47,224 bases of DNA, taken from a virus (taxonomy: Duplodnaviria > Heunggongvirae > Uroviricota > Caudoviricetes). Shown in pieces: positions 5,634 to 47,224 of the stretch. The stretch covers positions 1-47,224 of IMG/VR virus record IMGVR_UViG_2778261507_000009; one strand, 5' to 3'. Every line of letters starts with the position of its first letter. Position 1 is the stretch's first letter. Position numbers and translations under genes: made by a program. The notes under the pieces were generated by a model. That model had not been told where the DNA came from, did no database searches, and saw nothing but the letters and a program-made list of their open reading frames with translations.

Positions 5634-5656
5634 AATTAAATCCTTATTTTTCTAAA

Positions 5657-6645: not shown

Positions 6646-6746
6646 ATGATTGTTCTCAGAATGGACACGGCCCAAGGAAATAACGCTGATTTAATACTTC
6701 GACTCGGGACAAATTAAGGCATACCCGCATTCCTTCTCGGTCGCCA

Positions 6747-7054: not shown

Positions 7055-7170
7055 AATAAGACCTCAACTCTTTTCCATCCGTCACGTAATTTACGGGTGA
7101 TTCGTTCAAGTAAAGATTCATTTAGTTGGAAGGCACCCATGCGAGCGCCTCCCGCGATTGCGTAAATCAT
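7039..7170 (-). CDS. cIII: CIII protease inhibitor
   Basis: 43-aa ORF with ESLLERITRKLRDGWKR, identical core to lambda CIII as recalled. Confidence 0.7.
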   Translation of the reverse strand: MIYAIAGGARMGAFQLNESLLERITRKLRDGWKRVEVLLCAMK

Positions 7171-7194
7171 GGGTGGTTCCTTATGTTGGTTTTA

Positions 7195-8163
7195 TTAGTA
7201 GGTTATTTTTGTTGCGAATACTTCGCCTTTTACGATGGCTGTTATGATATTTTTAGCAACATCTTCTGATGCACCAACCTTGATAAGGTCAGCAAGTATT
7301 TTGTTATTTACTTCTTTCCGGTGAGCTTTATCCTTTGCTCTACGCTCTTCTTCTTCCTTGATTCTTTTTTCTTCTGCTATTCTGGCTTGCTCTTTTGCTT
7401 CAGCCTCGCGCCGGATTCGTTCAGCCTCCTCCTGTGCTTTTCGGCGTTCTGCTTCAATTGCCGCCTGCTTTTCTCTTTCAGCTCGTTCTGCTGCCTCTTT
7501 TGCTTCGCGCTGTGCTCGTTGCTCGGCTTCAATGCGTTCACGCTCTGCACGTTCCGCTGCGGCCTTAGCTTCTGCTTCTCGCCTTGCTGCTGCTTCAATT
7601 TCGGCTTTTGCCTTTGCTTCGGCTTCTGCTCTGGCTCTCTCTTCAGCTTCTCTTTTTAAGCGTTCTTCATGCTCTCGCTTTTCCCGCTCCGCTTTGAGTC
7701 TTGCCTCTTCTCTTTGGCGGTCAAATTCGCGATCCATCAAAATCGCTATTTCATGGTCAGACTCAATTTGCTTTGCGAGAGCTTCAGCTGCTGCCTTAGC
7801 TTCTTCTTCGGCTTTAATCCGTGCCTGCTCCTCCTCATAATCAGTAAGAGGCTGGCGCGCCTTGGCTTTCAGTTCATCAAGGCGATCGCGCACTGTCTTG
7901 CGGTTGGCATCAATTAGCTTTGGAATTTCCTTCAGTTCAGCAACAAGGTCTTTGCCAAGACCATCGAGATATGTTTTCGTCTGCGCAACTTTATACGCCA
8001 GAGAAGCGATCTCCTTTCTGCCCTTTGCCGTTGTGATATCAGGCACAAAGGACATAACTTCACGTTCAACCTTTTGAAGGATTTCTTCAATCTGGTCGGC
8101 AGACTGAAATACAGTCATTGCATTTGCTTTTTCAATAACAACTAAATCTGTTACTTCACTCAT
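7195..8163 (-). CDS. Hypothetical coiled-coil protein with long Glu/Arg/Ala-rich low-complexity repeat
   Basis: 322-aa ORF; central roughly 130 residues are EAxxAR-type repeats. Confidence 0.6.
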   Translation of the reverse strand: MSEVTDLVVIEKANAMTVFQSADQIEEILQKVEREVMSFVPDITTAKGRKEIASLAYKVAQTKTYLDGLGKDLVAELKEIPKLIDANRKTVRDRLDELKAKARQPLTDYEEEQARIKAEEEAKAAAEALAKQIESDHEIAILMDREFDRQREEARLKAEREKREHEERLKREAEERARAEAEAKAKAEIEAAARREAEAKAAAERAERERIEAEQRAQREAKEAAERAEREKQAAIEAERRKAQEEAERIRREAEAKEQARIAEEKRIKEEEERRAKDKAHRKEVNNKILADLIKVGASEDVAKNIITAIVKGEVFATKITY

Positions 8164-8198
8164 ATATCCTCCTTAATTTGTATGCGTCAAATCCGCGC

Positions 8199-8510
8199 TC
8201 AGGCTGCTGAGGTTTCTTCTTTCAGGCTTTCGATATATTTACGTGGGTCGTCGTAACATTGGCATTCGCTGTACCAATCCACCCAGCGATCAGTAAGCCC
8301 CATCTCTGATAAATCTTCATCGGTAAGGCTCTCATCCCACATCTCAAGGCCGTTAGCATTGCAGTAATCAGGCTTGATGTTGTTGTCATACTGAAAGGCG
8401 TCATAATCAGCCAGTGCGTCCATCAGGCGAACACCCTCTTCAACACTTGCCACTTCTACAATGAACGGCTTCATAGGTACTTGCGGGATATGCCAGACAC
8501 GTAATTTCAT
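8199..8510 (-). CDS. Hypothetical strongly acidic small protein
   Basis: 103-aa ORF; about 24 Asp/Glu versus about 9 basic residues. Confidence 0.5.
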   Translation of the reverse strand: MKLRVWHIPQVPMKPFIVEVASVEEGVRLMDALADYDAFQYDNNIKPDYCNANGLEMWDESLTDEDLSEMGLTDRWVDWYSECQCYDDPRKYIESLKEETSAA

Positions 8511-8828
8511 ATTTCCTCCGTCAAAAAAATTGCCCTCAATATGATGGCAAAGAAGATTTCCAATAATCAGAACAAGTCGGCTCCTGTTTAGTTACGAGCG
8601 ACATTGCTCCGTGTATTCACTCGTTGGAATGAATACACAGTGCAGTATTTATTCTGTTATTTATGCCAAAAGTAAAGGCCGAATATTCGGCTTCATTCCT
8701 CAAACTTAATCTCTGCTATTTCCCGGTCACCATCGCAAAACAGGTAAGATTCAGAGAACTGGTTTATAAATGAAATTATTCTTTCAATTTTAATTAGCGA
8801 ATATTTCTGCTCTAATGGGTTATGCGGC

Positions 8829-9686
8829 TTAAGCGAAGCACAGTCCAGAATCGCAGAATTGTATAAGATCCATTTGTGCATTTTTACCACCACTAGGTGT
8901 TAGTGGTGCCTCAGATAGTGGAACACCATATTTAGTAAGCCACAAATGAGGCCACTTCATTTGTATCTCTTTTTCATGCTGACATGCTCTTTCAAAATCA
9001 GATGGGACGTTATTTTTCATATAAAGCCACAGATCATCATCTCTGTTAGGGCACATCCAGCAAAGCGAGGCAGGTGGTGTAGGAAGACCATAATCCTCGA
9101 CACATTGAATTGCCATCTGTTTAGTCATTAGCATTTCAATAAGTGGATAGCGCCTCTGCCACTTGCCAGTTGGGTATTTCGCTCTTCGTTTAGCCTCTTC
9201 AATGCTTATCCCCATCCAACTATCCACTCCTCTTGCTGTAAGATACTTCTCTCCATATCTTTCATTTAAAAATCTCTGAATAACTTCAGTTTTCCACTTT
9301 ATAGAACAAAATGCTGGTTGCTTTCCAGCGCACATTCCTTTTGAATCCCTTCCCTCATATTCTGTGAAATATCCAGGTAGAGGAACGTCTGGATCAGGCC
9401 CATCAATGTCGTAGGTAGCAAATCTACTTTTAGGAACAATCAGGTAATCAACACCCATATCTTCACAAATAGGAGCTATATATTTTTTCTGATATTCAAA
9501 TACATTACTTGCCTCACGTTCTGTATCTGACATAACGATAATGTCAGGCTTTGGAAGAACGCCAGCATGTACTAAGCAGATTATTGCGTTACTTTGAGTC
9601 CCACCACCGGAAGAAATAACATTTAGTCTTTCTGGATTATGCTTGAATTCTCTTCTTGGTATGAATTTACTTGTAAATCCTGGCAT
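8829..9686 (-). CDS. PAPS reductase-like PP-loop ATP pyrophosphatase family protein
   Basis: 285-aa ORF; SGGGTQS PP-loop near N-terminus and Cys-rich C-terminal region. Confidence 0.6.
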   Translation of the reverse strand: MPGFTSKFIPRREFKHNPERLNVISSGGGTQSNAIICLVHAGVLPKPDIIVMSDTEREASNVFEYQKKYIAPICEDMGVDYLIVPKSRFATYDIDGPDPDVPLPGYFTEYEGRDSKGMCAGKQPAFCSIKWKTEVIQRFLNERYGEKYLTARGVDSWMGISIEEAKRRAKYPTGKWQRRYPLIEMLMTKQMAIQCVEDYGLPTPPASLCWMCPNRDDDLWLYMKNNVPSDFERACQHEKEIQMKWPHLWLTKYGVPLSEAPLTPSGGKNAQMDLIQFCDSGLCFA

Positions 9687-9687
9687 G

Positions 9688-9819
9688 TTATCTCCTTGTC
9701 TTTACAATTTGATAATCCTGACCTGTTTGTTTTGCGTATTGCTCAGCCTGTTCTTTTGTTTTGAAAGAGTTTCCGCAAACCCATCTACCGCAACTTCTGT
9801 ATTGAATTTGGTAGCTCAT
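9688..9819 (-). CDS. Small hypothetical protein upstream of the PAPS reductase-like gene
   Basis: 43-aa ORF with GAGGGG RBS; stop 1 nt before the next start. Confidence 0.35.
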   Translation of the reverse strand: MSYQIQYRSCGRWVCGNSFKTKEQAEQYAKQTGQDYQIVKTRR

Positions 9820-9822
9820 ATC

Positions 9823-10128
9823 TCACCCCTCATACAGTGGTTTGCTGCCTAATTTCATTTTCTGGCGACCAACACAAGTCACACCCATTTCACTGCGTGG
9901 CTTGCGGTAGTAAATACGGTTCTGTTTACGCTCGACTTCTTCTGCCTTCTTGCAGCGAAGGCTTCCGAGTGATGCTGCTTTATCTGCTCTGACGCAACCA
10001 GAGAGCTTTAGCGCAATTTTTCGCGCCAGTCGCTGCTCTTGCATTGCCTGTTCACGTTGAGCCTGTCTGCGTGCTCTGCGGCGATTTCTGGCGTTATCGT
10101 CAGCCAGATATGTAATGACTACTGTCAT
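9823..10128 (-). CDS. N: N-type transcription antiterminator (non-lambda specificity)
   Basis: 101-aa ORF first gene after pL; arginine-rich motif NARNRRRARRQAQREQ; GGAGG RBS. Confidence 0.6.
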   Translation of the reverse strand: MTVVITYLADDNARNRRRARRQAQREQAMQEQRLARKIALKLSGCVRADKAASLGSLRCKKAEEVERKQNRIYYRKPRSEMGVTCVGRQKMKLGSKPLYEG

Positions 10129-10236
10129 GTTGACCTCCGATGATTGACTTTGGCGGTGACGCGCCGGGTGCTTATCTTCCGGTTGCCGTCGTGCAGCTGC
10201 ACTTCACGTCACCCCAAAGCCAACTACTCTTTGGTT

Positions 10237-10280
10237 CCCGCATTTCGGCGGGACAATCCCATCAATGTTAAAGAGCCTGC
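10237..10280 (-). promoter_or_regulatory. nutL-like site (boxA GCTCTTTAA and boxB hairpin CCCGC-CGAAAU-GCGGG)
   Basis: boxA-like then hairpin on minus strand between pL and N; same boxB recurs at nutR. Confidence 0.45.
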
Positions 10281-10319
10281 CAATCTGTTCCGTTTGGCTA
10301 CCAGCTTCCTGCTGATGTG

Positions 10320-10385
10320 TTTAGTATCACCGCTAGTGGTATTTATGTCAACACCGCCAGAGATAATTTATCACCGCAGATGGTT
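10320..10385 (-). promoter_or_regulatory. pL promoter with OL1-OL2-OL3 operators (lambda type)
   Basis: Three 17-bp operators; -35 TTGACA and -10 GATACT on minus strand. Confidence 0.75.
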
Positions 10386-10530
10386 ATCTGTATGTTTTTT
10401 ATATATATTTATTTTTTGCCGGGGTGTGTTGCTGGGGGGATCGAGAGATCAGAATTGCGATGTTTAGTGAGTTGTATCTATTTATTTTTCAATAAATACA
10501 ATTGATTATGTTTTTTAGGTGGACGATCGT

Positions 10531-10561
10531 GAGGCAAAGAAAACCCGGCGCTGAGGCCGGG
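10531..10561 (-). terminator. Intrinsic terminator ending the cI immunity transcript (t-imm-like)
   Basis: 6-bp GC stem CCCGGC/GCCGGG followed by T-run on minus strand, 8 nt after the stop of 10569..11441. Confidence 0.55.
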
Positions 10562-10568
10562 TTGTATA

Positions 10569-11441
10569 TTATTTAATTTCTTTTTCCGGTAAATACATTG
10601 TCATTTGAACAGGTTTCTTTCCATAGTGTTGAGCAACTCGACTTCTTAGCTCATGCATGGTGTCGCATGTTTTTGCGACCCCAATAACCTCCCAGCACCT
10701 TGATACAAGCTGCCTTACACCTAGGTTCTCGGTTAACTGTCTATGCCAGTGAACTCCTGCCGCAGGCTTGTTTTCTTTAAGATATTTAGCCACATCTTCG
10801 TCAAGAGTGTCATAAATTAACTCTATAACTAATTTCCCCCACCATTTGGGCCTTGATTGCAATGGGGTACTCCATCCTGTCAATCTACCAAATTCTTCCC
10901 ATAACTCATCAGGAAATGTTTTTTCCCATGCTCTTAGTTCCTCAGCGATGAACGCCCTGAGTTTTACTTGGAGAGCATCCTCTGCGCGCTCATACTGATA
11001 CCCAGTAGCCTCATCAATTAGAGCATCTAACCCAGTCCTGGTTAAACCTGCTGTTAATACAGCACATTTAATTGCTATTTCTCGCTGTCTATCTGTCAAT
11101 GGCGCGCCTTTGTATAGCGCCTGTACATAGCCGCGACAAATCAATTCAAATTGCTCAGTCTTAAGTCCTTGGCTCTTAAATTGGGTTCCTGGTATGGAAA
11201 ACTCTATGAGTTCGGCCAGGACTAAGTCTTTGTCTATAAAGCCATTAAGTGAGCTAACGCCAATAAATTTAGCCAGGTCTCCTGACTCCGCATTGGCAAT
11301 TGCTTTTACAGTTGCTCGCAAAGCTATAACACGATGTCCAGTGTCAAGCACATAGCAATCAATACTTTCACCACCTAAGTCGATCTTCCCCTTCCATTTT
11401 GCGAATGGGGATGGTAATTGCTGTAAATCATCATGTTCCAT
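10569..11441 (-). CDS. Unknown protein co-transcribed with cI, occupying the rexA-rexB slot
   Basis: 290-aa ORF starting 31 nt downstream of cI stop on the same strand; no recognisable motifs; alternative upstream start at 11537 would overlap cI. Confidence 0.55.
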   Translation of the reverse strand: MEHDDLQQLPSPFAKWKGKIDLGGESIDCYVLDTGHRVIALRATVKAIANAESGDLAKFIGVSSLNGFIDKDLVLAELIEFSIPGTQFKSQGLKTEQFELICRGYVQALYKGAPLTDRQREIAIKCAVLTAGLTRTGLDALIDEATGYQYERAEDALQVKLRAFIAEELRAWEKTFPDELWEEFGRLTGWSTPLQSRPKWWGKLVIELIYDTLDEDVAKYLKENKPAAGVHWHRQLTENLGVRQLVSRCWEVIGVAKTCDTMHELRSRVAQHYGKKPVQMTMYLPEKEIK

Positions 11442-36697: not shown

Positions 36698-37183
36698 TTA
36701 TCTGATGTTACTGCTACTGTTGCATGTGACTGTATTTCCAAACCCTGAATTGCAGTTTGTGTAAGTGTCAACTCGTGTTGGATAGGGTTGAGTTATAACA
36801 GGCTGTCTCGCTTTTTGCTCGATCGCTTGCATTGTGTTTACAGCCTGATAATTCAATAAAGCCTGCTGGAATGCTTGGCTTTGTGCTATTTGTTGGGCTT
36901 GTTCTTGGCTTTGTAATTGAACATAAAGATTCTGAAGCTCAAGCCTTGCCTGTGCGTCACTTATCTTGCCTTCATCGACACCTTGCCCGAGCATCTTCGC
37001 AGCAAGGACATACAGCTTAGGTGTTGGTGCTGATGCCATGCGTGAGTCGTTCTTCACACTGGCATCAAGGCAATTAGCCATATCGCTAAGCTTTTGATAG
37101 CGTTGTTCGCAACTTGCTTGATAGTCACTTACTTTTGCGCATCCAACCAGTAGAAGCGGGATAATTAACAGTGATTTTTTCAT
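36698..37183 (-). CDS. Lipoprotein moron (possible exclusion or conversion factor)
   Basis: 161-aa ORF with AAGGAG RBS; signal peptide and lipobox LLVGC; opposite strand to flanking structural genes. Confidence 0.6.
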   Translation of the reverse strand: MKKSLLIIPLLLVGCAKVSDYQASCEQRYQKLSDMANCLDASVKNDSRMASAPTPKLYVLAAKMLGQGVDEGKISDAQARLELQNLYVQLQSQEQAQQIAQSQAFQQALLNYQAVNTMQAIEQKARQPVITQPYPTRVDTYTNCNSGFGNTVTCNSSSNIR

Positions 37184-37252
37184 ATGGTTAACTCTCCTTA
37201 GTTTTTCACAGGATATCATGAAGGCAATGACTTTTATCCGGAAACTAGATTT

Positions 37253-37519
37253 CTATGTTTCCTTTTTATTATTGCTATACATGGTCTTAAGCGTTTCAAA
37301 AACCATTTTCTTAACCATATCAGATTGTTGTTCTGCCATACGCTCTGCATCGTCAATGTAAACGGATGCAGAGCTTTGTTTAGCCAATGATTCTTCAATC
37401 GCTGCAATTATCTCTGAGTTCAGCGACCTGTTATTCATCTTCGCACGCTGTTTAATCTTCGCGTGGAGTTCATGCGGAAGTCTCAAGTGAAACTGCGCCT
37501 CGTCGTATTTGCTGTACAT
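37253..37519 (-). CDS. mnt: Mnt-like ribbon-helix-helix repressor
   Basis: 88-aa ORF; NNRSLNSEIIAAIEESL and C-terminal AERMAEQQSDMVKKMVFETLK closely resemble P22 Mnt as recalled. Confidence 0.75.
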   Translation of the reverse strand: MYSKYDEAQFHLRLPHELHAKIKQRAKMNNRSLNSEIIAAIEESLAKQSSASVYIDDAERMAEQQSDMVKKMVFETLKTMYSNNKKET

Positions 37520-37640
37520 CCTTGATGCCTCACCAGTTGGGTGGAATGGCATCGTAACCTACTGGATAAATACTCAATAGTACCATTTCGGTATGCAATC
37601 ACATCATGGTTGCATCATATCATTCGTCTGGAGCAATGAA

Positions 37641-39446
37641 ATGTCAGATATCACCGCAAATGTTGTGGTAAGCATGCCTTCGCAACTCTTCACTATGGCT
37701 CGTTCTTTTAAAGCCGTAGCCAATGGCAAAATTTATATTGGTAAAATTGACACTGACCCTGTAAATCCTGAAAACCAGATTCAGGTTTATGTAGAGAACG
37801 AAGACGGCTCTCACGTTCCTGTATCGCAACCAATCATCATTAACGCTGCTGGATATCCGGTATATAACGGACAGATTGCCAAGTTCGTAACTGTACAGGG
37901 CCATTCTATGGCTGTTTATGATGCGTATGGTGCACAGCAGTTTTATTTTCCTAATGTGCTGAAGTATGACCCTGATCAGTTTGGTCCAGACTTCAAAGAG
38001 CAGTTATCTCAATCAGGGGAATACATTAATGATGATTCAAAAGGTGATGCATTAATTGGCGTAAGACAGCCCGTTGCCGGGTCGGTAGCTATCACACAGC
38101 ATGATAAAAACGCACAAATAATCAACTTAAAAGATTTTGGTGCTAAGTGCGATGGTGTAACTGATGACACAGTGGCAATTCAGGCTGCTGTAGCTGCTGC
38201 GCATACTGGTGTCCGTATAGTTCAACCTGCAGGGGTTTGCCTTACATCTCAGCCGTTGTCATTCACTAGTCCTGCATTTTGGTATGGAGATGATGGCGCT
38301 CGCATTAAGCTCATTAGTGGCAGTCATGACTATGTTATGGAAATTGATCTTCGCGGGCCTAGTGGTTCGTTCTGGGGTTATGGGTCACATATTGAAAACA
38401 TTATCTTTGATGGTGGTGGTCACGCAAAAGATGGCCTTTCATTGCGTGGTGTTATCGGAGGTATATTCAAAAATATTCGTGGGACAAATATATCAAGGGC
38501 CGCTATTCATGAATGGTGGACCCAACTTTGCCACTATGAAAATATTCAATGCAGTAATAATATTGAAGCATTCCAAACAACCCCTGTTCACGGAATCTTA
38601 TCTGATTGTGAGTTTGGAACTGGTAATGATCGTGGGTCTTCTGCAAATACTTACATGAATACCACTATTGAACATACCTCTGGTAGTGGGATTTGTGGGG
38701 TGTTTATGTCTAATTGTACATTTATAAATGGCACATCAGAAGGTAACGATATTGGCATTGAGTTTGGTCACGCTACTGATGATAGAAACCAATCAGTTGG
38801 GAATTCAGTTATTGGTATGGATCTTGAGGTTAATTCTTTAACTGATGTGTTATTACATAAAACAACATATGCAAATGACTTTATTGGTCTAAAAGCTGGT
38901 TATTCATCTCCAGCCATTCAGGTGCAAGGCTCATATGCTAATAGCTTTATTGGTGGAGTAAGCAGTGGTATAGATTTTGACTCATCATCGCATGATAATA
39001 AAGTAATAGGTATGAATCTTTTAGGCAACGATTCTATCATCGTAGATAATGGATCAAGAAATTCATATGAGAATATTTTCAATATTTCATCTGGAGCTAA
39101 AAAAGAAAGCACTAACCCTTATCCATCGCGTAGCAACAATATAATTTCATCAAATGGTACTGTGCAAATTAACCCATTTTTATCATCATACTGTGTTGTG
39201 TCGGCTGCTGGTTCACCAATTAATGTTACGTCTGTAGCAAAAAGATTAGACGGTGCGACTATTGATATGACTATTCATAACATTTCTGGATCTGATGAAT
39301 TAATAGTAAACTGGTCTTCTGACTTCAGAGTTTCTGGATGGACAAGCCCGGCAACAGGGCGCCACCGGTCTATAAGATTTGCTTATGATGCAAACTACGG
39401 ATACTGGACTGCTATATCTATGAGTCAGTCAGATATTCTGAACTAA
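37641..39446 (+). CDS. Tailspike protein: P22-type head-binding N-domain fused to a pectate-lyase-like beta-helix receptor domain
   Basis: N-terminal 120 aa match P22 gp9 as recalled; remainder has beta-helix repeats and is AT-rich. Confidence 0.85.
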
Positions 39447-39467
39447 GATTTATGCTGTGGGGGGGGG

Positions 39468-40586
39468 TTATTCCCCCTGTTTTACTTTCCTCATATCCAC
39501 CAGTTTACCAGGGATGCTCATAAATATCCTATTTCTAATCTTGTTAGTAAGTATCACTTCAATATATTTATGCGAAAGAAATGCAATAAAAATTGATAAA
39601 ATTAGTAAAATAGTGAACCCGTATACATTGTGCATCACACCTGGATTATTAGCCTCAACCTGCCATGAAATGTAACTACCTACCTGGTTATGAAGCAGAT
39701 ACCATGAGAAGGAAATATCACCAAGCATTACAAAAAATGATGGTGTAATTTTTGTTATAACTTCATCATTTATTACGAACGCCACTAAGAGGAAGTATGC
39801 AATGATGCCTGTCTTTAAATTATAACCTTCAATAGAACCATTGAAGACTGCAGTCATAAAAATTAATGCCGATATAGCAGTGAATGAGTATTTTAATCTA
39901 TTGCTCCATGATTTTGCTGAACGCACTGTGTGCCCAGCAAGGATGCCTAAAGCAAATTCAATTACTATCGGATTTGTTAAAAAGCTAAGTTCTGGAGTAC
40001 CAGTTTTATAACCTGAAGTGGATAATGTTACATTTCCAGTCAACATATATCCTACAAGGATAGTTGTCATTATCCATACGACTATGCCAGAGGTTCTTTT
40101 ATTGAATAATAAACAAAGTGCGAATACAAGATAGAAGTATAATTCATAGTTAAGCGTCCATCTAATAACAAATATACCACCAGCATCAACATACAAAGGA
40201 GGGTACGCATCCGTAAAAGGAGAGAATGTTAAAGCACTCAGTAAATTTTCCACCTTAGCTTGGTCAACGAAGATTCCAACTTCCCATGTAAAGTAGAAAG
40301 CTGTAAAGAGAGCAATAAAATATGTAGGAAAAATCCTTGTGAGTCTTTCTACGGAAAAGAATATAGCAGACTTTATACCAGATGGCTTACGGCTAGTGAT
40401 ATGCATCATAATAAAACCACTTATTACGAAGAACAAATCAACACCAGCAGAACCCCAAGATAAATATTTATTAGGGATAGTTAAATCTCCATACAATGGT
40501 GATAACCAAAATCTGTAGTGAAAAAGAACTACAGACAATGCAGCTAATCCTCTAAGTATCTGTACTGAGCTAAGTTTATTGTTCAT
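39468..40586 (-). CDS. Acyltransferase family 3 membrane protein (O-antigen acetylase Oac-like)
   Basis: 372-aa multi-TM ORF, AT-rich; N-terminal RGLAALSVVLFH motif typical of acyltransferase_3; between tailspike and int as oac is in Sf6. Confidence 0.75.
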   Translation of the reverse strand: MNNKLSSVQILRGLAALSVVLFHYRFWLSPLYGDLTIPNKYLSWGSAGVDLFFVISGFIMMHITSRKPSGIKSAIFFSVERLTRIFPTYFIALFTAFYFTWEVGIFVDQAKVENLLSALTFSPFTDAYPPLYVDAGGIFVIRWTLNYELYFYLVFALCLLFNKRTSGIVVWIMTTILVGYMLTGNVTLSTSGYKTGTPELSFLTNPIVIEFALGILAGHTVRSAKSWSNRLKYSFTAISALIFMTAVFNGSIEGYNLKTGIIAYFLLVAFVINDEVITKITPSFFVMLGDISFSWYLLHNQVGSYISWQVEANNPGVMHNVYGFTILLILSIFIAFLSHKYIEVILTNKIRNRIFMSIPGKLVDMRKVKQGE

Positions 40587-40797
40587 TATTAAACCGATCA
40601 CTTTCTGTAAATGTCATTCACATGATTATGCGATAAAACCCATAGTAATCCATTATAAATTTTTCTATATGAAACATAAGAAAAATTCACTGAGTTGTTG
40701 AATTGATACATCTCATCTTTCAACGACAATGTCTACAAAACACACAAAGCTTTGCACTGGATTGCAATGATTTGTGTCATTCGATAGTTAATGTGGA

Positions 40798-41955
40798 TCA
40801 CTCCACCTTTTCATCAAGCCAGTCCGCCCACCATTGCATCATTTCTCTGCGCTTATCGAGATACTGAGCATGGTTGTAAATCCCGCGCACAGAACCGCCG
40901 TTGGCATGTGCCAGCTGCACTTCAATAGCGTCAGCAGGCCATTCGTGCTCGTTCATAATCGTGCTGAATTCATGCCTGAATCCGTGACCGCTTTCCAGAC
41001 CTTCATAGCCGATTTGTTTGATCACAAGCAATACCGCGTTCTCGCAGATTGGCTTCTTCTTATCGTTGCGCCCGGCAAAAACAAACTCTGAGACTGGTTT
41101 GGTGATTGAGCTTAGCGTAGTGAGAAGTTCAACCACCTGGTCTGACATCGGGACCACATGAATTTTGCGTCCCTTCATCACACTGGCGTCGATGGTGATA
41201 ATCCTGTTTTCAAAATCGACGTTCTTCCATAGCATGGAACGAAGCTCTTTTGTTCTTAGGGCTGTGTAGCGTAAAACTTTGGTCGCAATGAGCGATACGA
41301 TACTTCCTGAAAATGTTGCCAGTGCTTTGTTGAATGCCGGGATCTGGTCTGCAGGAAGAAACGGGAAGTTCTTCTTGCGGTATCCCTTCATGGCGTCCGC
41401 AAGGTCAGGTGCCGGGTTGTATTTAGCCCTTCCGGTGACAATAGCGTAACGGAAAACTTCGCCGCATCTTCTGCGGGCTTTGTTGGCTCGCTCCATTGCA
41501 CCGCGATCTTCAAATCTGCGGATTACTTCCAGCAGTTGCATCGGCTCAATATCCTGAATTTCAAGGCTGCCGATGATAGGTAAAATGTCGTCATCAAACA
41601 TTTTTGCAAGTTCATTTGCATAGCCTACTGACCAGACTTGCTTCTTGTGCTCGTACCATTCCTTGTAAATGGCACTAAAGGAATTGTTGTTAGACGAAGC
41701 CTTTTTCGCTTTTACCGGATCGATACCAACCGAGATGTCTTTCCTCGCAGTCCATGCTTTATCCCTTGCCTCCTGCAAAGTCATAAGCGGATATTTTCCT
41801 ACGGTCAGTATTTTTTCCTTACCGTCAATCTTGTAGCGAAGCTGCCATACCTTTTTCCCGGATACAGGGACATAAAGGTACAGGCCATTACCATCGAGAA
41901 GGCGGTATGGTTTTTCTTTCGGCTTTGCTGCTTCAATCTGCTTAACGGTGAGCAT
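40798..41955 (-). CDS. intS: Tyrosine integrase (P4/IntS family)
   Basis: 385-aa ORF from MLTVKQIEAAKP, adjacent to argW; C-terminal catalytic HxxR...Y region; matches IntS as recalled. Confidence 0.85.
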   Translation of the reverse strand: MLTVKQIEAAKPKEKPYRLLDGNGLYLYVPVSGKKVWQLRYKIDGKEKILTVGKYPLMTLQEARDKAWTARKDISVGIDPVKAKKASSNNNSFSAIYKEWYEHKKQVWSVGYANELAKMFDDDILPIIGSLEIQDIEPMQLLEVIRRFEDRGAMERANKARRRCGEVFRYAIVTGRAKYNPAPDLADAMKGYRKKNFPFLPADQIPAFNKALATFSGSIVSLIATKVLRYTALRTKELRSMLWKNVDFENRIITIDASVMKGRKIHVVPMSDQVVELLTTLSSITKPVSEFVFAGRNDKKKPICENAVLLVIKQIGYEGLESGHGFRHEFSTIMNEHEWPADAIEVQLAHANGGSVRGIYNHAQYLDKRREMMQWWADWLDEKVE

Positions 41956-42116
41956 GGGTAAAAATCCGGTGGGTAAAATTATTTTATCCACTTTTTACCC
42001 GTCATGGAGTGCGGCTGTCAACGATCTGACGCGAACCATTACGAACTGTTAATCTACGGAAGGCTTGATATTCAGGGGATTTTGCGGACTGGTACGGATG
42101 GGAGCGAACTGATAAA

Positions 42117-42191
42117 TGGTGTCCCCTGCAGGAATCGAACCTGCAATTAGCCCTTAGGAGGGGCTCGTTATATCCATTTAACTAAGAGGAC
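42117..42191 (-). tRNA. argW: tRNA-Arg (anticodon CCU)
   Basis: 75-nt cloverleaf on minus strand, anticodon loop CUCCUAA, T-arm GGTTCGATTCC, 3' CCA; 3' 15 nt duplicated at 1690..1704. Confidence 0.9.
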
Positions 42192-42266
42192 AATGCGGCA
42201 TGAGTATACCCGCTAATGGACTGCGGGGTAAGTACGCTGCCGTGCGATTGCTTAAACCCTCGCCAT

Positions 42267-43199
42267 TTATGCCGGGTTTTTATCATTTTTCTTAATGTTT
42301 TCCGCACGTTCTGCTTTTTGGCGTGCTTCTGCTTTGCGCTTGTTGCTCATGTCGTTACGGATCTGTGCATGACTCATTAACGCGAAGATAAAGGTGCCGC
42401 CGCAGATGTTCCCCGCTAAAGTAGGTAGTGCGAAGGGCCAGATGAAATCGCTCCAGTGCAGCGTACCGTTAAACACCAGATAGAGGATTTCAACAGAACC
42501 GACAACGATGTGAGTGGTGTCACCCAGGGCAATAAGCCAGGTCATCAATATAATCACCACAATCTTTGCCGCACCCGCTGCAGGAAACATCCATACCATA
42601 GTGGCGATCAGCCAGCCGGAAATGATCGCGTTGGCAAACATCTCGCTGGGGGTGTTCTTCATCACATCCATGCCGATTTTGACAAATGCATCGCGAGTTT
42701 CTTCATTGAAAATAGGCATATATTCAAATGCCCACGCAGCAATACCTGTCCCGAGAATATTACCCAGCAGCACGACGCCCCATAACCGCATAAGTAAGCC
42801 AACGTTGCTCATTGTCGGTTTTTGCATGACGGGTAGTACCGCAGTCACGGTGTTTTCGGTAAATAATTGCTGGCGGGCCATAATGACGATAATAAAACCA
42901 AAGGTATAACCGAGATTCTCCAGCAAGAAGCTGCCCGGCACACCTTCCAGTTCGACATGAAATATCCCTTTTGCCAGTAATGAAGCGCCCATCGACAGAC
43001 CCGCCGCAATGGCTGACCACAGTAGTGCCATTGCGTCGCGTTCCAGCTCTTTTTCACCATCCTGGCGGATATGCTCATGAATTGCCATCGCCCGGGAGGG
43101 GAGTCGATCTTCATCTATTTCTATTTTTTTGCCACTCTCTTTTTCTTCGCTCTCAACTTCAATTTCGTCGCTGTGTTGATCAATTTTGTCGTTGTCCAT
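42267..43199 (-). CDS. yfdC: Inner membrane protein, formate/nitrite transporter family
   Basis: 310-aa multi-TM ORF; position next to argW as in E. coli. Confidence 0.75.
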   Translation of the reverse strand: MDNDKIDQHSDEIEVESEEKESGKKIEIDEDRLPSRAMAIHEHIRQDGEKELERDAMALLWSAIAAGLSMGASLLAKGIFHVELEGVPGSFLLENLGYTFGFIIVIMARQQLFTENTVTAVLPVMQKPTMSNVGLLMRLWGVVLLGNILGTGIAAWAFEYMPIFNEETRDAFVKIGMDVMKNTPSEMFANAIISGWLIATMVWMFPAAGAAKIVVIILMTWLIALGDTTHIVVGSVEILYLVFNGTLHWSDFIWPFALPTLAGNICGGTFIFALMSHAQIRNDMSNKRKAEARQKAERAENIKKNDKNPA

Positions 43200-43492
43200 G
43201 GTCTCTTCTCTTGAATTAGCACGTATAGCTAAAGCGTAGCGGCTTTTTCGCTCGCAACTGGCGGGAGTTACTCTGAAAATGTAGAAAAGGCCGCGTTTGC
43301 CTTTTTCTGTTTCTATAGAATCAAGTAGCCTACAGGGCGGCGATTACCAGGCTATGATCAAATCAGCAAATCAGGGCGTCTGGACATCAGTTGACGTGCT
43401 GTTACAATCGCCCACACCTAAACAGGCGGATACGGTATCGTTCCGTCATGGATGGCAAACTGCATAAGCCATAAAAAAACAGGGAGACATTT

Positions 43493-44248
43493 ATGAAGCT
43501 TCGCCTGTCGGCGCTTGCTCTGGGAACTACGCTTCTGGTGGGGTGTGCGAGTTCCGGTACAGATCAGCAAGGGCGTTCTGACCCGTTAGAAGGGTTCAAC
43601 CGCACCATGTACAACTTCAACTTCAATGTATTAGACCCGTATATTGTTCGACCGGTCGCTGTTGCCTGGCGTGATTATGTTCCACAACCGGCGCGTAACG
43701 GTTTGAGCAACTTTACCGGCAACCTTGAAGAACCTGCGGTGATGGTTAACTACTTCTTGCAGGGCGACCCTTATCAGGGGATGGTCCACTTTACCCGCTT
43801 TTTCCTGAACACCATTTTGGGGATGGGCGGCTTTATTGATGTTGCAGGGATGGCGAACCCGAAACTGCAACGGACTGAACCTCACCGCTTCGGTAGTACG
43901 CTTGGTCATTATGGCGTGGGTTATGGGCCTTACGTCCAGTTACCGTTCTACGGTAGCTTCACGCTGCGTGATGACGGTGGTGATATGGCGGATGGTCTTT
44001 ACCCGGTTCTTTCCTGGCTGACCTGGCCGATGTCTGTGGGTAAATGGACGCTTGAAGGGATAGAAACTCGTGCGCAGTTGTTGGATTCTGACGGTCTGCT
44101 GCGTCAGTCGTCCGATCCTTATATTATGGTGCGCGAAGCGTACTTCCAGCGTCATGATTTCATCGCTAATGGCGGCGAACTCAAACCGCAGGAAAATCCG
44201 AACGCGCAAGCGATTCAGGATGATTTAAAAGATATCGATTCTGAATAA
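43493..44248 (+). CDS. mlaA: Outer-membrane lipoprotein MlaA (VacJ)
   Basis: 251-aa ORF with lipobox LLVGC; matches MlaA as recalled. Confidence 0.8.
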   Translation: MKLRLSALALGTTLLVGCASSGTDQQGRSDPLEGFNRTMYNFNFNVLDPYIVRPVAVAWRDYVPQPARNGLSNFTGNLEEPAVMVNYFLQGDPYQGMVHFTRFFLNTILGMGGFIDVAGMANPKLQRTEPHRFGSTLGHYGVGYGPYVQLPFYGSFTLRDDGGDMADGLYPVLSWLTWPMSVGKWTLEGIETRAQLLDSDGLLRQSSDPYIMVREAYFQRHDFIANGGELKPQENPNAQAIQDDLKDIDSE

Positions 44249-44262
44249 GAAACAAATAAAAA

Positions 44263-44290
44263 AGGTGAGTCGCAATACTCACCTTTTTTG
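44263..44290 (+). terminator. Intrinsic terminator after mlaA
   Basis: 8-bp stem AGGTGAGT/ACTCACCT followed by TTTTTTG. Confidence 0.65.
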
Positions 44291-44640
44291 TTGTTATCCC
44301 TCAATTATCACAAGTAAAAGGAGATAAACCGACAATGACCCGGACGTAATTATGTAAAAATACTGATGTTCGTCACTGACTATTTCCGATATTCAGCTGT
44401 TGAAAAATCAAAAAACTGGAAAAATAATTTAAATATCATCAAAATTAACACCTAGCGCATATAGTTGATTAATTTCATTTTGATATTTCGTCTGGCGATC
44501 TTGAAGCCTTTTTCAATGTTACCTTCGAGTTCCTTAAAGTGCTTATATATTTTTTGAGAATGGTCAACGTTAACTTCGTTACCGAATAAAGTAGAAACTA
44601 TTTCTTTTGTATTCTCAAGTGTATATTTTCTATCATCCTC

Positions 44641-45672
44641 TTAATATTCATATCCTCTTGCTAGATTTGAAGGATTAAAAGCTTCGTTAAGTTCTCTCAG
44701 TCTTTCCCCTTTGAGTTCGTTTACAACTTGATGATCGGAACCTGTTGCAAATGATTCTGCAATGATTGCTTTACTGTGTTCAAACCACGCAGAAGCACTC
44801 CTGGCTTTTTTACTACAATATTGGGTGAGATTATCACCATCAATACGAAATCCTTTTTGAATGTGGTAGCCATCCTGATCGTAGTAACCGAGAGATAAGT
44901 AATCATTTCCATTTTTATTTTTAATTACAATAGCGAGAGAGTCGCCTTTTTTATCTTTACCGTACCAGGTAAATAAGCCCGTTGGTTCGCTTTTCCCGCT
45001 CTCATCGAATTCCGTTACCGTATGTCTGAGTTTATGTGATATTTTATCGAAGATAAAACTTGGATCTTCATCATATATTTCTTTTATTGCGCTGAAGATC
45101 ATTTTCTTGTTATTGATATCATGAGTATTCTCTACTATGTTTTCATTGATGATGGTTTGGCCGACTTTTTTGTTTTCATCGTTCGCGGGTGATTTTATTG
45201 GTTCTTGATTATCAATATCAATATCGTCTGTATCATTGGAGTCAATGCCAATATCACTACGATCATCAATACCACCATCAGTAAATTCAGCATTATTTAT
45301 ATCATCATGAGTCTTCTCAACTATGTTGTCATTAATGATAGTACGGGCGAGTTCTTTGTCTTTATAGCTCGCAAGTAATTTTATTGGTTCTTGGTTATCG
45401 ATACCAATAGTAATATAGTCTGAATCATTGGAACCAATATTAATATAAGTAACTGAGGAATTATTAATATTAAATCTATCAGGATTGTCGTTTACTCGTA
45501 TGGCGTTTTTTATAAGCTCAAGCAGATGTTTAATACAGGTGCTTATTCCTTCCTTACCATTAAAAAGGTTTTTGAACTCTTGTACTAATCCATTAACTTC
45601 ATCATTGTTATTTTCATTGATGGATTCTGGGTAAGCTGCACTGGTATTGTTGATTGAAATAGATGGTAGCAT
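44641..45672 (-). CDS. yfdF: Uncharacterized AT-rich protein YfdF-like with internal tandem duplication
   Basis: 343-aa Asn/Asp/Ile-rich ORF between mlaA and fadL; two copies of a roughly 35-aa segment. Confidence 0.65.
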   Translation of the reverse strand: MLPSISINNTSAAYPESINENNNDEVNGLVQEFKNLFNGKEGISTCIKHLLELIKNAIRVNDNPDRFNINNSSVTYINIGSNDSDYITIGIDNQEPIKLLASYKDKELARTIINDNIVEKTHDDINNAEFTDGGIDDRSDIGIDSNDTDDIDIDNQEPIKSPANDENKKVGQTIINENIVENTHDINNKKMIFSAIKEIYDEDPSFIFDKISHKLRHTVTEFDESGKSEPTGLFTWYGKDKKGDSLAIVIKNKNGNDYLSLGYYDQDGYHIQKGFRIDGDNLTQYCSKKARSASAWFEHSKAIIAESFATGSDHQVVNELKGERLRELNEAFNPSNLARGYEY

Positions 45673-45991
45673 GATTTTATTCCATTTTGATTGATTTGTT
45701 ACAAATATATATTACCTAATGAAATAGACTATCAAAAAACGCTCATTTATTTAGAGCCTATCTTTAATTTGAGTGTATGAGCGCACAATAGCCAGGGGGT
45801 TGAGTATCCTGGAAATTCAGAAAAGTAAACTCTTTGAGAAGGACGAGCAGAACGCCTGAAAATATGCGTTTCCCTTCAGGTTTGTCTGTGGATACCACTT
45901 ACTGATTTGAAAGGGCAAGCTGCCATCAGGCTGTTTGCAAAACTCAGGAGGCAAGCAATGAGGAAACTACTTTCGGTGAAGTGGGGGAGTT

Positions 45992-46018
45992 AAAGTCACC
46001 TGCATAGCAGGTGACTTT
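45992..46018 (-). terminator. Intrinsic terminator after fadL
   Basis: Perfect inverted repeat AAAGTCACCTGC/GCAGGTGACTTT immediately downstream of the fadL stop. Confidence 0.5.
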
Positions 46019-46036
46019 ATCCAGGCGAACGCGTTA

Positions 46037-47224
46037 TCAGAACGCGTAGTTAAAGTTAGTACCGAACAGCCAGGCTTTACCTTCAGATTTAAAGGTATAT
46101 GCTGCTGGCCCTTCACCTTCAGTAAACTTCACATTCTGACCGTGCATATAAGATGCACCAACGTCAATGGATGCATCTTCATTAAATGCATAAGTCGCAC
46201 CTGCACTTAACCACAGACGATCCTGATCTGGGATAGAGATAGAACGTTTATCTGCCGGAACCGGGCTGTCATCGAATGCAATACCCGTACGGAAGGTCCA
46301 GTTTTTATCGTGGTAGTAGGTTGTACCTAACGCGATACGGTAAGCATCCCGGAAACCTTCGTCTTTATAGAACAGCGTTTGACCAGAGTCTCCTTTCGCT
46401 TTCAGTTCCTGGAATTGACTCCAACTGGTATACGCCAGACTATAGTGGATAGCCCATTGTGGTGCGACACGGTTATAGCCAGAAATTTCCCACATCTCAG
46501 GTAAATTCAGCGTTAAGGACCCATTTTGGGTTGCACCCATTGTGCCATATGGTAAACCCATGCTACCCAAAATGTTGTTCAGATTTGGGTTGATGGAGCT
46601 TTTGTAATCTCCTTCAAAGTCAATTTTCACTTCTGAACGATAGGTTAGGCCCCAACGGTTATCTTTATCCAGTTCATAAAGAATACCGGCGTTCCAGCCG
46701 AATCCCCATTCATCACCCTTGAGATGAGCAATTTGCGAATCCGGTGTATTGATGCCGTTTGTCCAACTTTGTGGCACGCCTTGCGCTATCAGTTGTTGGG
46801 AAAGCAATGGACCGAGTGAACCGGCAGTACGCTCAATTTTTGCCTTAGCGTATACAGCATCAAAACCAAGACCAAAACTCCAGCTATTGTTAAGGCGGTA
46901 GGCTCCGCTAAGGTTAAGGTTGATCGTCTGCAGATCGGTTTTACCGCCATAGATTCCAGCAGCGTAGTTATCATTAAATTCCGTGGCCAGACCATAGTTC
47001 GAGGTAATAGAAGCCCCCCAACCAAACTGATCGTTAATAGGTGCTACGAAATGTAGGTTAGGCACCCACGCAGTTGGTGCAATATTATCTGCATCAGCAC
47101 GCTGGCCCGTTAAATCGGAACGCCCAGAAATATCTACATCCGGATCAATATAAACCGCACCCGCAGAAAATGTCGGGCGGTCAAACATGGTAATCAATGC
47201 GGGGTTACGGCTGACGTTACCTGC
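46037..47224 (-). CDS. fadL: Long-chain fatty acid outer-membrane transporter FadL (3' portion; N-terminus lies beyond window end)
   Basis: Minus-strand frame runs open to the window edge; C-terminus GTNFNYAF and beta-barrel pattern match FadL. Confidence 0.85.

What the first reader, a model, noticed from the sequence alone, without database searches (positions are those of the whole stretch)
37641..40586. AT-rich receptor-recognition and serotype-conversion module: chimeric tailspike plus acyltransferase_3 gene next to int
Seen in sequence: the tailspike N-terminal 120 residues are P22 gp9-like, then the sequence switches to a beta-helix domain with a pectate-lyase-like signature ([15 protein letters not shown]) and visibly lower GC. 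The adjacent minus-strand gene is a multi-TM acyltransferase_3 protein, also AT-rich. Established knowledge: Sf6 pairs a tailspike with oac at this position, and acetylation of O-antigen changes serotype and blocks superinfection. Inference: this module was acquired horizontally and defines a distinct O-antigen specificity and modification.
Basis: partly seen in the sequence, partly recalled or inferred. Interest (0 to 1): 0.45.

Follow-up and report, generated by a model that had tools for sequence, protein, structure and literature searches.

The report
Tailspike receptor domain plus O-acetyltransferase cassette
A P22-like prophage at the E. coli argW tRNA gene carries a mobile two-gene unit, a tailspike receptor-binding domain and a membrane acetyltransferase that probably masks the same surface sugar; the arrangement is already known from phages Sf6 and phiV10, but this version is uncharacterised.

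Summary
Window 37641-39446 (+) encodes a 601-aa tailspike with a P22/Sf6 head-binding domain (aa 1-113) joined to a different beta-helix receptor domain. Window 39468-40586 (-) encodes an intact 372-aa AT3 acyltransferase, 211 bp from intS at argW. Both are AT-rich: GC 0.377 and 0.345, against 0.481 for the rest of the prophage.

The main new result is that the receptor domain and the acyltransferase move as one about 2.5-kb cassette (38039-40577).
- The convergent pair recurs on at least five phage backbones: P22-like at two integration sites, phiV10-like, a siphovirus type and one more, in E. coli, Salmonella and Citrobacter.
- One phiV10-like E. coli prophage shares only this stretch with the window, at 97.6% nt identity. 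There it sits where phiV10 has its own receptor domain and oac.
- One E. coli lysogen has cleanly deleted the acyltransferase. A Citrobacter prophage remnant kept it while the tailspike decayed.
- The acyltransferase is under purifying selection (dN/dS about 0.1) and has all AT3 catalytic motifs.

The best reading is lysogenic conversion and superinfection exclusion by O-acetylation of the tailspike's own receptor, as in Sf6 and phiV10. The biochemistry is inferred, not shown. The receptor may be O15-type O-antigen, but that rests on a single lysogen. This is a new member of a known kind, of moderate interest.

The parts
37641..39446 (+). Tailspike gene (601 aa), a chimera of a head-binding anchor and a foreign receptor-binding domain
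   Evidence: ORF. Pfam Head_binding aa 1-113 and PF12708 aa 160-218. PHROG phrog_18522 over the full length. 98-99% aa identity to the tailspikes of L001, L002 and L003.
37641..38038 (+). Head-binding (anchor) domain and neck, typical of the Lederbergvirus backbone
   Evidence: 86-93% nt identity to IME10, Sf101, Sf6, HK620 and CUS-3, ending at about 37981-38014. 92% aa identity to the Sf6 tailspike over aa 1-113. PDB phmmer matches to the P22 and Sf6 N-terminal domains.
38039..39446 (+). Receptor-binding domain (aa about 133-601), a right-handed beta-helix
   Evidence: AlphaFold2 pLDDT 90.6. Foldseek best matches are the Sf6, Det7 gp208, CBA120 TSP3 and HK620 tailspikes at 11-16% identity. 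The domain is fused to at least four different N-terminal anchors elsewhere. Invariant acidic residues in alignment A2.
39457..39480 (+). G-run/C-run hairpin followed by a T-tract between the convergent genes. The acyltransferase stop codon (39468-39470) lies in its loop.
   Evidence: Terminator scan. The hairpin, with the stop codon in the loop, is conserved on all backbones examined.
39468..40586 (-). AT3-only membrane acyltransferase (372 aa; alternative GTG start at 40601)
   Evidence: Pfam PF01757, 81.9 bits. phrog_3333 'O-acetyltransferase', E 5.5e-89. R12-X10-H23, R81xxR84, GVDLFFVISGF, WTLxxE, S292/Y296 and E343 are invariant. About 10 TM helices. Best PDB fold match is human HGSNAT. 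dN/dS 0.07-0.14.
38039..40577 (.). Mobile cassette: receptor-binding domain, hairpin and acyltransferase coding sequence
   Evidence: This is the only stretch of the window shared with the phiV10-like prophage L015, at 97.6% nt. The flanks of L015 are 86-88% identical to phiV10. The same pair occurs at 76-81% nt in L004, L009, L016, L018 and L019.
39493..40782 (.). 1290-bp segment absent from the otherwise 98% identical prophage of E. coli QML220601. It is a deletion there, not an insertion here.
   Evidence: Junction comparison with a 2-bp 'tc' ambiguity. QML220601 keeps the last 7 codons of the acyltransferase (RKVKQGE*), and that C-terminus is conserved in homologues 78-79% identical.
40587..40797 (-). 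AT-rich (GC 0.31) region upstream of the acyltransferase, with a TATAAT hexamer on the minus strand at 40653-40658
   Evidence: Sequence. Conserved in L002 and L004 and partly in L009. No full sigma-70 consensus was found by the scan. Promoter function is inferred only.
40798..41991 (-). IntS-type tyrosine integrase
   Evidence: Pfam Phage_integrase, Phage_int_M and Arm-DNA-bind_3. Annotated as intS in homologous E. coli loci.
42117..42191 (-). tRNA-Arg(CCT) argW, the integration site at the int end. A partial repeat at 1690-1709 marks the other prophage end.
   Evidence: ARAGORN. 20-nt direct repeat, 90% identical. yfdC, mlaA and fadL flank it, as in E. coli.

Best explanation
The region is the host-recognition and lysogenic-conversion end of an about 40-kb P22-like (Lederbergvirus) prophage integrated at argW in E. 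coli.

The tailspike uses a standard head-binding anchor to carry a foreign beta-helix receptor domain. That domain binds, and probably cleaves, a particular surface polysaccharide, most likely an O-antigen.

The convergent AT3 gene encodes an inner-membrane acetyl-CoA-dependent O-acyltransferase. It is expressed from its own promoter in the lysogen. It acetylates that same polysaccharide, so tailspikes of this type can no longer bind or cut it. The result is a changed serotype and exclusion of superinfecting phages that carry the same receptor domain.

Because the enzyme is only useful against its matching receptor domain, the two are inherited and exchanged together as one about 2.5-kb cassette. 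One breakpoint is at the anchor/receptor-domain junction. The other is at the acyltransferase start codon.

Shown here: the domain architecture, intact catalytic motifs, purifying selection, the cassette boundaries, and co-transfer between phage backbones.

Inferred: the acetyl donor and acceptor, expression in the lysogen, blocking of the tailspike, and the identity of the glycan. An O15-type O-antigen is a single-lysogen lead only.
For: Architecture
- The gene order and orientation are identical to Sf6 (14 / terminator / oac / oac promoter / int) and to phiV10 (tail fiber p25, then oac p26 annotated 'functions in superinfection immunity').

Linkage
- Every receptor-domain homologue of at least 73% aa identity in the loci retrieved has an acyltransferase homologue of at least 77% identity lying convergently 12-30 bp away. 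The only exception is L001, which retains a relic.
- Receptor-domain homologues of 57% identity or less, such as those of virulent phages, have no such acyltransferase.
- The backbones differ: Lederbergvirus at argW (window, L020/21, Salmonella L004-8), Lederbergvirus beside bioA (L002/3), a siphovirus type with Tail_spike_N (L009-13), phiV10-like Uetakevirus (L015-17), and a DNA-polA/Enc34-type contig (L018).
- L015 shares only 38039-40577 with the window, at 97.6% nt. Its flanks are 86-88% identical to phiV10 on both sides.

Functionality
- The AT3 motifs R-X10-H and RXXR, described as essential in PMC9558356, are invariant.
- dN/dS is 0.07-0.14. The AlphaFold2 model is an all-helical membrane protein whose best PDB match is the acetyl-CoA transmembrane acetyltransferase HGSNAT.

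Natural variants
- The Citrobacter locus L019 keeps an intact 372-aa acyltransferase beside a truncated, frameshifted tailspike, a truncated integrase and an IS element.

Literature
- Sf6 Oac, phiV10 Oac and BTP1 GtrC block the cognate tailspike or adsorption (PMC9558356).
- PMC10408124 notes O-antigen modification genes 'behind the RBP' in Lederberg- and Uetakeviruses.
Against: - There is no biochemical or genetic test of acetylation, expression or exclusion for this protein.
- It is only distantly related to the characterised enzymes: 26% identity to Sf6 Oac over about 190 aa, and no BLASTP hit to phiV10 Oac. Substrate and position cannot be transferred from them.
- AT3 proteins also acylate capsules, peptidoglycan, osmoregulated glucans and other acceptors (PMC9558356).
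- No consensus sigma-70 promoter was detected upstream.
- Identities of the receptor domain and the acyltransferase are not strictly parallel between loci. L004 is 88% and 78%; L018 is 73% and 87%. Some recombination inside the cassette has therefore occurred.
- One lysogen (QML220601) has lost the gene, so it is dispensable for prophage maintenance.
- The O15 assignment rests on that one genome.
Confidence: 0.75

Rival explanations
1. The acyltransferase is an unrelated 'moron' that acylates another envelope glycan (capsule, ECA, colanic acid, peptidoglycan or periplasmic glucans). It lies beside the tailspike only because the end of the late operon tolerates insertions.
For: AT3 proteins have many acceptors (PMC9558356). 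One homologue carries the source name 'OpgC protein', and phage homologues are annotated 'exopolysaccharide production protein'. A 45% homologue in Salmonella sits in a non-phage island.
Against: The linkage is to the receptor domain, not to a position. The pair lies before int in Lederbergvirus, before the lysis genes in Uetakevirus, and at a prophage end in the siphovirus type. The cassette breakpoints enclose both genes. The stop codon shares a conserved hairpin with the tailspike 3' end on all backbones.
Confidence: 0.12
2. The acyltransferase creates the receptor rather than masking it. The tailspike needs an O-acetylated glycan, so the pair is linked because the modification defines the epitope that is recognised.
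For: To my knowledge some phages require O-acetylated O-antigen; this was not checked here. Co-transfer is equally expected under this model.
Against: A prophage that creates its own receptor on its lysogen would promote wasteful adsorption of its progeny. The tested precedents with this gene order (Sf6, phiV10, BTP1) all block adsorption or cleavage. The QML220601 phage lysogenised its host and persists without the gene.
Confidence: 0.06
3. The acyltransferase is a decaying passenger with no present function, and the AT-richness is local compositional drift rather than foreign origin.
For: The gene is absent from one otherwise near-identical prophage. No NCBIfam model matches it.
Against: The ORF is intact and all family-invariant residues are present. 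dN/dS is 0.07-0.14 while dS is saturated or nearly so in most comparisons. It is retained intact in a Citrobacter prophage remnant. GC and GC3 lie below every other 1100-bp window of the prophage. The same DNA occurs on unrelated backbones.
Confidence: 0.03

Closest known systems
Shigella phage Sf6: tailspike (gene 14), oac (gene 15, OacA) and int (gene 16), integrated at argW
   Same: The gene order, orientations, inter-gene terminator and integration site are the same. The tailspike head-binding domain is 92% identical, and aa 131-190 are 55% identical. Both enzymes are AT3-only and share R-X10-H and RXXR.
   Different: The acyltransferase is only 26% identical over about 190 aa (E 1.6e-7), and is 372 aa against 333 aa. 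Beyond aa 190 the receptor domain is 25% identical or less. The substrate is therefore not the S. flexneri rhamnose backbone by homology.
Escherichia phage phiV10 (Uetakevirus): tail fiber p25 and oac p26 (acetylates O157 antigen; superinfection immunity)
   Same: A convergent RBP/oac pair with a 12-bp gap. A phiV10-like E. coli prophage (L015) carries this window's cassette at exactly that position.
   Different: No BLASTP similarity between the two acyltransferases. The receptor domain is different (O157-specific in phiV10). The window's backbone is Lederbergvirus, not Uetakevirus.
Salmonella P22 gtrABC and BTP1 GtrC (an AT3-SGNH acetyltransferase)
   Same: A prophage-encoded O-antigen modification beside the tailspike/int end that blocks the cognate tailspike (PMC9558356; PMC4413052, listed).
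   Different: Those are glucosylation cassettes or two-domain AT3-SGNH enzymes. This protein has no SGNH domain.
Modular exchange of tailspike receptor domains between phage genera (PMC10408124, Virol J 2023)
   Same: The anchor/receptor-domain breakpoint is the same, and exchange involves the same genera (Lederberg-, Uetake- and Kutterviruses).
   Different: That study tracks receptor domains only and treats modification genes as a caveat. Here the exchanged unit includes the acyltransferase. This receptor-domain subtype and serogroup O15 are not among its 14 assigned subtypes.

Membership tests
Acyltransferase-3 (AT3, PF01757) membrane-bound O-acyltransferases | Pfam Acyl_transf_3 domain above the gathering score | tested here: met
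   81.9 bits against a cut-off of 31, covering aa 12-342 of 377. phrog_3333 'O-acetyltransferase', E 5.5e-89.
Acyltransferase-3 (AT3, PF01757) membrane-bound O-acyltransferases | R/K-X10-H motif in TM1 and RXXR motif in the first cytoplasmic loop (PMC9558356) | tested here: met
   R12...H23 and R81-L-T-R84 are invariant across 32 aligned sequences that include Sf6 Oac.
Acyltransferase-3 (AT3, PF01757) membrane-bound O-acyltransferases | Polytopic membrane protein of about 10 TM helices. 'AT3-only' architecture means no fused SGNH domain. | tested here: met
   Hydropathy peaks and the AlphaFold2 helices. No second Pfam domain. Best PDB fold match is HGSNAT.
Acyltransferase-3 (AT3, PF01757) membrane-bound O-acyltransferases | Transfers an acyl group to an extracytoplasmic glycan | not testable with these tools
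   Needs LPS chemistry (NMR or MS) on lysogen, cured strain and deletion mutant.
Sf6 OacA / phiV10 Oac orthologue (same substrate specificity) | Close sequence relationship to a characterised Oac | tested here: not met
   26% identity over about 190 aa to Sf6 Oac. No BLASTP hit to phiV10 Oac.
Phage serotype-conversion / superinfection-exclusion module (tailspike plus O-antigen modifier) | The modifier gene lies immediately next to the receptor-binding protein gene of a temperate phage, with its own transcription unit | tested here: met
   Convergent genes with 21 bp between their stop codons, which flank a conserved hairpin, the acyltransferase stop codon lying in its loop. Same layout as Sf6 and phiV10.
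Phage serotype-conversion / superinfection-exclusion module (tailspike plus O-antigen modifier) | The modification blocks adsorption or cleavage by the cognate tailspike | not testable with these tools
   Supported only indirectly by co-transfer of the receptor domain and acyltransferase on at least five backbones.
P22-like (Lederbergvirus) tailspike | N-terminal head-binding domain PF09008 | tested here: met
   E 4e-67, aa 1-113. PDB matches to the P22 and Sf6 N-terminal domains.
P22-like (Lederbergvirus) tailspike | Right-handed parallel beta-helix receptor domain | tested here: met
   AlphaFold2 pLDDT 90.6. Foldseek probability 1.0 to the Sf6, Det7, CBA120 and HK620 tailspikes.
P22-like (Lederbergvirus) tailspike | Endoglycosidase activity on a defined O-antigen | not testable with these tools
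   Invariant D and E residues exist in alignment A2, but the catalytic pair and the substrate are unknown. The O15 lead comes from one lysogen.

The most novel reading that the evidence does not exclude
The receptor-binding domain and its cognate AT3 enzyme form a self-contained 'recognise-and-mask' cassette. It is exchanged as one unit between unrelated temperate phage lineages (podo-, sipho- and possibly myovirus types) and between E. coli, Salmonella and Citrobacter. If this is general, the receptor-domain subtype would predict the acetyltransferase's glycan substrate and the reverse. This particular cassette would then target and acetylate the O15-type (L-FucNAc-containing) O-antigen, producing an undescribed O-acetylated O15 variant.
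Probability: 0.4. Interest if true: 0.55.

Novelty: new member of a known kind. Interest (0 to 1): 0.35.

Why it matters
**Predicting host range and serotype.** Tailspike receptor domains are used to predict phage host range and to build O-antigen-specific diagnostics and tailocins. A linked acetyltransferase means lysogens of such phages may display a modified antigen. That antigen could escape both the phage and serotype prediction from the O-antigen gene cluster.

**Assigning substrates to orphan acyltransferases.** The receptor domain and the modifier travel as one cassette with defined breakpoints. This offers a practical rule: look at the neighbouring receptor domain to guess what an orphan AT3 enzyme acts on.

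**A ready-made comparison.** There are three natural variants: the window has both genes, QML220601 has the tailspike only, and the Citrobacter remnant has the acyltransferase only. Together they allow a direct test of exclusion.

**Limits.** The biology itself, serotype conversion by O-acetylation, is well established.

Tried and rejected
- **Insertion model.** I first read the acyltransferase as an insertion, because QML220601 lacks it. I rejected this. QML220601 keeps the last 7 codons and the stop codon of the gene, and that C-terminus is native to distant homologues. It is a 1290-bp deletion there.
- **Phase variation through the G9 run at 39459-39467.** Rejected. The run lies between the two stop codons. 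Its length varies among loci without touching either ORF.
- **Promoter.** The scan found no sigma-70 consensus on the minus strand upstream of the acyltransferase. Only a TATAAT hexamer conserved in some backbones was seen. The promoter is left as inferred.
- **NCBIfam.** No model matched the acyltransferase.
- **Kapi1, an E. coli argW phage reported to modify O-antigen.** It has only a 34-aa ORF between tailspike and int, and that ORF is unrelated to this C-terminus. It is not an analogue.
- **Structure of the O15 O-antigen and its O-acetylation state.** The primary paper (Perepelov 2011, PMID 21167479) is not held, and the review's tables and supplements are not held as text. My recollection is that E. 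coli O15 shares its structure with a Salmonella O59 strain and Citrobacter O35. That is unverified and not used as evidence.
- **Host serogroups of the 57%-identical phage tailspikes (hz69, GZMU_E2010).** Nothing useful was found.
- **Scan of genome contigs with the receptor-domain alignment.** It returned one locus only, because it is limited by its search patterns. Prevalence across species is therefore not measured.
- **P0012 context look-up.** No record was found.
Full report
**Setting**

The window is E. coli chromosome. The right flank (42000-47224: argW, yfdC, mlaA, fadL) is 99.9-100% identical to several complete E. coli genomes. An about 40.4-kb prophage lies between a partial copy of the argW 3' end at 1690-1709 and the intact tRNA-Arg(CCT) at 42117-42191. 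Its structural half is 94-96% identical to Lederbergvirus (P22-like) phages vB_EcoP-720R6, E212, Kapi1, CUS-3 and IME10. The finding covers the last two genes before the integrase.

**Check of the observation**

The tailspike:
- ORF 37593-39446 contains the tailspike. The ATG at 37641 gives 601 aa, the same start as its homologues.
- Pfam finds Head_binding at aa 1-113 (E 4e-67) and the N-terminal part of Pect-lyase_RHGA_epim at aa 160-218 (E 3.6e-9). The motif [15 protein letters not shown] is at aa 163-177.
- Megablast against 50,697 phage records matches only the first about 390 nt, at 86-93% to IME10, Sf101, Sf6, HK620 and CUS-3. Nothing further matches. The gene is therefore a chimera with its junction at aa 125-133.
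- Against the Sf6 tailspike, identity is 92% (aa 1-113), 65% (114-130), 55% (131-190) and 25% or less beyond. The N-terminal cap of the beta-helix, which holds the quoted motif, is thus a semi-conserved segment.

The acyltransferase:
- The minus-strand ORF 39468-40586 encodes 372 aa. A GTG at 40601 is an alternative start.
- It matches Acyl_transf_3 at 81.9 bits against a cut-off of 31. It lies 211 bp from the IntS-type integrase at 40798-41991.

Composition:

| Segment | GC | z | GC3 |
|---|---|---|---|
| Rest of prophage | 0.481 (1100-bp windows: sd 0.029, minimum 0.389) | | |
| Tailspike aa 229-601 | 0.377 | -3.6 | 0.26 |
| Acyltransferase | 0.345 | -4.7 | 0.30 |
| Region upstream of acyltransferase | 0.308 | | |
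| int | | | 0.53 |

The drop in GC starts near 38300-38400 rather than at the domain junction.

**The two proteins**

- Receptor domain: it is modelled with high confidence (pLDDT 90.6) as a right-handed beta-helix with a C-terminal beta-sandwich. Foldseek places it among phage tailspikes (Sf6, Det7 gp208, CBA120 TSP3, HK620) at only 11-16% identity. The closest phage-encoded relatives are 57% identical (hz69, vB_EcoS_GZMU_E2010) and 47% identical (TSP2 of PhiSH19-type Kutterviruses).
- Acyltransferase motifs: it has the family's essential motifs R12-X10-H23 and R81xxR84. Also invariant in 32 sequences that include Sf6 Oac are GVDLFFVISGF, W143-T-L-x-x-E148, S292/Y296 and E343 (motifs as described in PMC9558356).
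- Acyltransferase fold: it is predicted to be all-helical with about 10 TM segments. Its best solved-structure match is human HGSNAT, an acetyl-CoA transmembrane acetyltransferase. It has no SGNH domain, so it is 'AT3-only' like Oac.
- Acyltransferase relatives: it belongs to phrog_3333 'O-acetyltransferase' (E 5.5e-89). It is only 26% identical to Sf6 Oac over about 190 aa and has no BLASTP hit to phiV10 Oac.
- Selection: dN/dS against six homologues is 0.07-0.14. For the receptor domain it is 0.12-0.23.

**Main result: the two genes move together**

Homologues of the acyltransferase at 77-99% identity, and of the receptor domain at 73-99%, were traced to their contigs. In every case the two lie convergently, 12-30 bp apart. 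A G-run/C-run hairpin sits between them, and its loop contains the acyltransferase stop codon.

The backbones differ:

| Backbone | Loci |
|---|---|
| Lederbergvirus at argW in E. coli | window, L020, L021 |
| Lederbergvirus at argW in Salmonella (79% nt over 37389-40672) | L004-L008 |
| Lederbergvirus beside ybhB/bioA, with an 84-bp relic of the intS 3' end carried along | L002, L003 |
| Siphovirus type, with a Tail_spike_N anchor downstream of a GpJ-like protein | L009-L013 |
| phiV10-like Uetakevirus, with the pair between a Bro-N gene and the holin/endolysin genes | L015-L017 |
| Contig with DNA polymerase A and an Enc34-type ssDNA-binding protein | L018 |

L015 is decisive. It shares only 38039-40577 with the window, at 97.6% nt. 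Its flanks are 86-88% identical to phiV10 on both sides. In that prophage the window's cassette therefore occupies exactly the place where phiV10 has its own receptor domain and oac. In phiV10 the tail fiber p25 and oac p26 are convergent with a 12-bp gap, and oac is annotated as acting in superinfection immunity.

The exchanged unit is the receptor domain, the hairpin and the acyltransferase coding sequence. Promoter regions are specific to each backbone. Receptor-domain relatives of 57% identity or less have no such neighbour. A 46%-identical acyltransferase in Serratia lies against the tail-fibre and assembly genes of a Mu-like prophage, which suggests a wider association.

**Natural variants**

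- Rarity: among 5,426 complete E. coli genomes, only QML220601 has this tailspike (97.9% nt). None has the acyltransferase, even by sensitive blastn.
- QML220601: its tailspike runs almost directly into intS. The junction shows that 1290 bp (window 39493-40782) are missing between a 2-bp 'tc' repeat. It retains the last seven codons of the acyltransferase, RKVKQGE*. That C-terminus is conserved in homologues 78-79% identical (GKLVDMRK[VA]NQGA). This is therefore a deletion, not the ancestral empty site.
- Citrobacter meridianamericanus BR102 (L019): the converse case. An intact 372-aa acyltransferase lies beside a tailspike remnant that starts at aa 163 and is frameshifted, a truncated integrase and an IS element. 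This suggests the gene is kept by the host after the phage decays.

**Mechanism**

The layout is that of Sf6 (14 / terminator / oac / oac promoter / int) and of phiV10. In both, the review literature reports that O-acetylation of the O-antigen changes serotype and blocks the phage's own tailspike or adsorption (PMC9558356). The same reasoning explains why a modifier would be inherited with one particular receptor domain.

I therefore conclude that the acyltransferase acetylates the polysaccharide recognised by this receptor domain, and so protects lysogens from phages bearing that domain. Confidence is 0.75. The chemistry, the expression and the exclusion are inferred.

The rivals are weaker because the linkage follows the receptor domain rather than a genome position, the gene is under purifying selection, and the tested precedents all mask the receptor:
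- an unrelated moron acting on another glycan (0.12);
- a modifier that creates the receptor (0.06);
- a dead passenger gene (0.03).

**Which glycan?**

- The only complete-genome lysogen, QML220601, has an O-antigen cluster annotated 'O15 family' wzx and wzy, with fnlA, wbjC and wecB for L-FucNAc.
- Its wzy is 99.7% identical to that of strains named O15:H12 and O15_8X.
- 100 of the 5,426 complete genomes carry this wzy.
- This is one data point and only a lead. A paper title links the O-polysaccharides of E. coli O15 and Salmonella O59 (cited in PMC7685785). I could not read that paper.

**Comparison and novelty**

- Exchange of receptor domains between Lederberg-, Uetake- and Kutterviruses is documented (PMC10408124). 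That paper mentions modification genes 'behind the RBP' only as a caveat, and it does not cover this subtype or serogroup O15.
- Tailspike-plus-oac modules are classical. What is added here:
  - an uncharacterised member, with both proteins distant from studied examples;
  - evidence that the receptor domain and the modifier are exchanged as one cassette with defined breakpoints;
  - informative natural deletion and remnant variants.
- I rate it a new member of a known kind, interest 0.35.

Noticed in passing
window 36698-37219 (-): A 173-aa ORF with a lipoprotein signal and lipobox (MKKSLLIIPLLLVGC) and a Q-rich body. It matches phrog_6067 (unknown function) and no Pfam family. It lies between the gp16-like ejection protein gene and mnt, where, to my recollection, P22 carries sieA, so it may be another exclusion or moron gene. 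It is conserved in QML220601 at 95% nt.
   Followed up: partly
L019 (Citrobacter meridianamericanus BR102) 4113-8068: A prophage remnant: a truncated integrase, an IS (rve) element, and a tailspike fragment that starts at aa 163 and is frameshifted. The 372-aa acyltransferase next to host genes is intact, which looks like domestication of the modifier.
   Followed up: partly
L004 (Salmonella enterica GCA_005997165.1) 5540-9188: Between int and the cassette there is a second, unrelated AT3 gene (363 aa, 26% identical to this one), plus a resolvase/HTH_7 fragment. Related contigs also carry int fragments. This is a possible double O-acetylation module.
   Followed up: no
L002/L003 (E. coli) 7702-10963: The same tailspike and acyltransferase (98% nt) lie next to ybhB/bioA instead of argW. 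They still carry an 84-bp relic of the intS 3' end, which shows the cassette came from an argW-type phage.
   Followed up: partly
window 39459-39467 and the equivalent positions in L002, L004, L009, L015, L016, L018, L019: The G-run of the inter-gene hairpin varies from about G5 to G10 among loci. It lies outside both ORFs, so it is not a frameshift switch. Any effect on termination is unknown.
   Followed up: partly
L035/L036 (Serratia marcescens): An acyltransferase about 46% identical to this one overlaps the tail-fibre assembly gene (Caudo_TAP) and tail-fibre gene of a Mu-like myovirus prophage. This AT3 subfamily may be generally linked to receptor-binding genes of temperate phages.
   Followed up: no
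window 7201-7800: A strong strand asymmetry (AT skew -0.565, GC skew -0.206) inside a minus-strand ORF (7195-8163). It stands out from the rest of the prophage and is unexplained.
   Followed up: no
window 44401-45600: An AT-rich (GC 0.32-0.34) host segment between mlaA and fadL (the yfdF region) with a 106-nt direct repeat at 45118-45223 and 45304-45409 (81% identical).
   Followed up: no
L034 (phage Kapi1) 6859-6963: The gene between tailspike and integrase of Kapi1, discussed in its preprint as a candidate O-antigen modifier, is only 34 aa. It is unrelated to this acyltransferase's C-terminus and is probably a relic of a different lost gene.
   Followed up: yes
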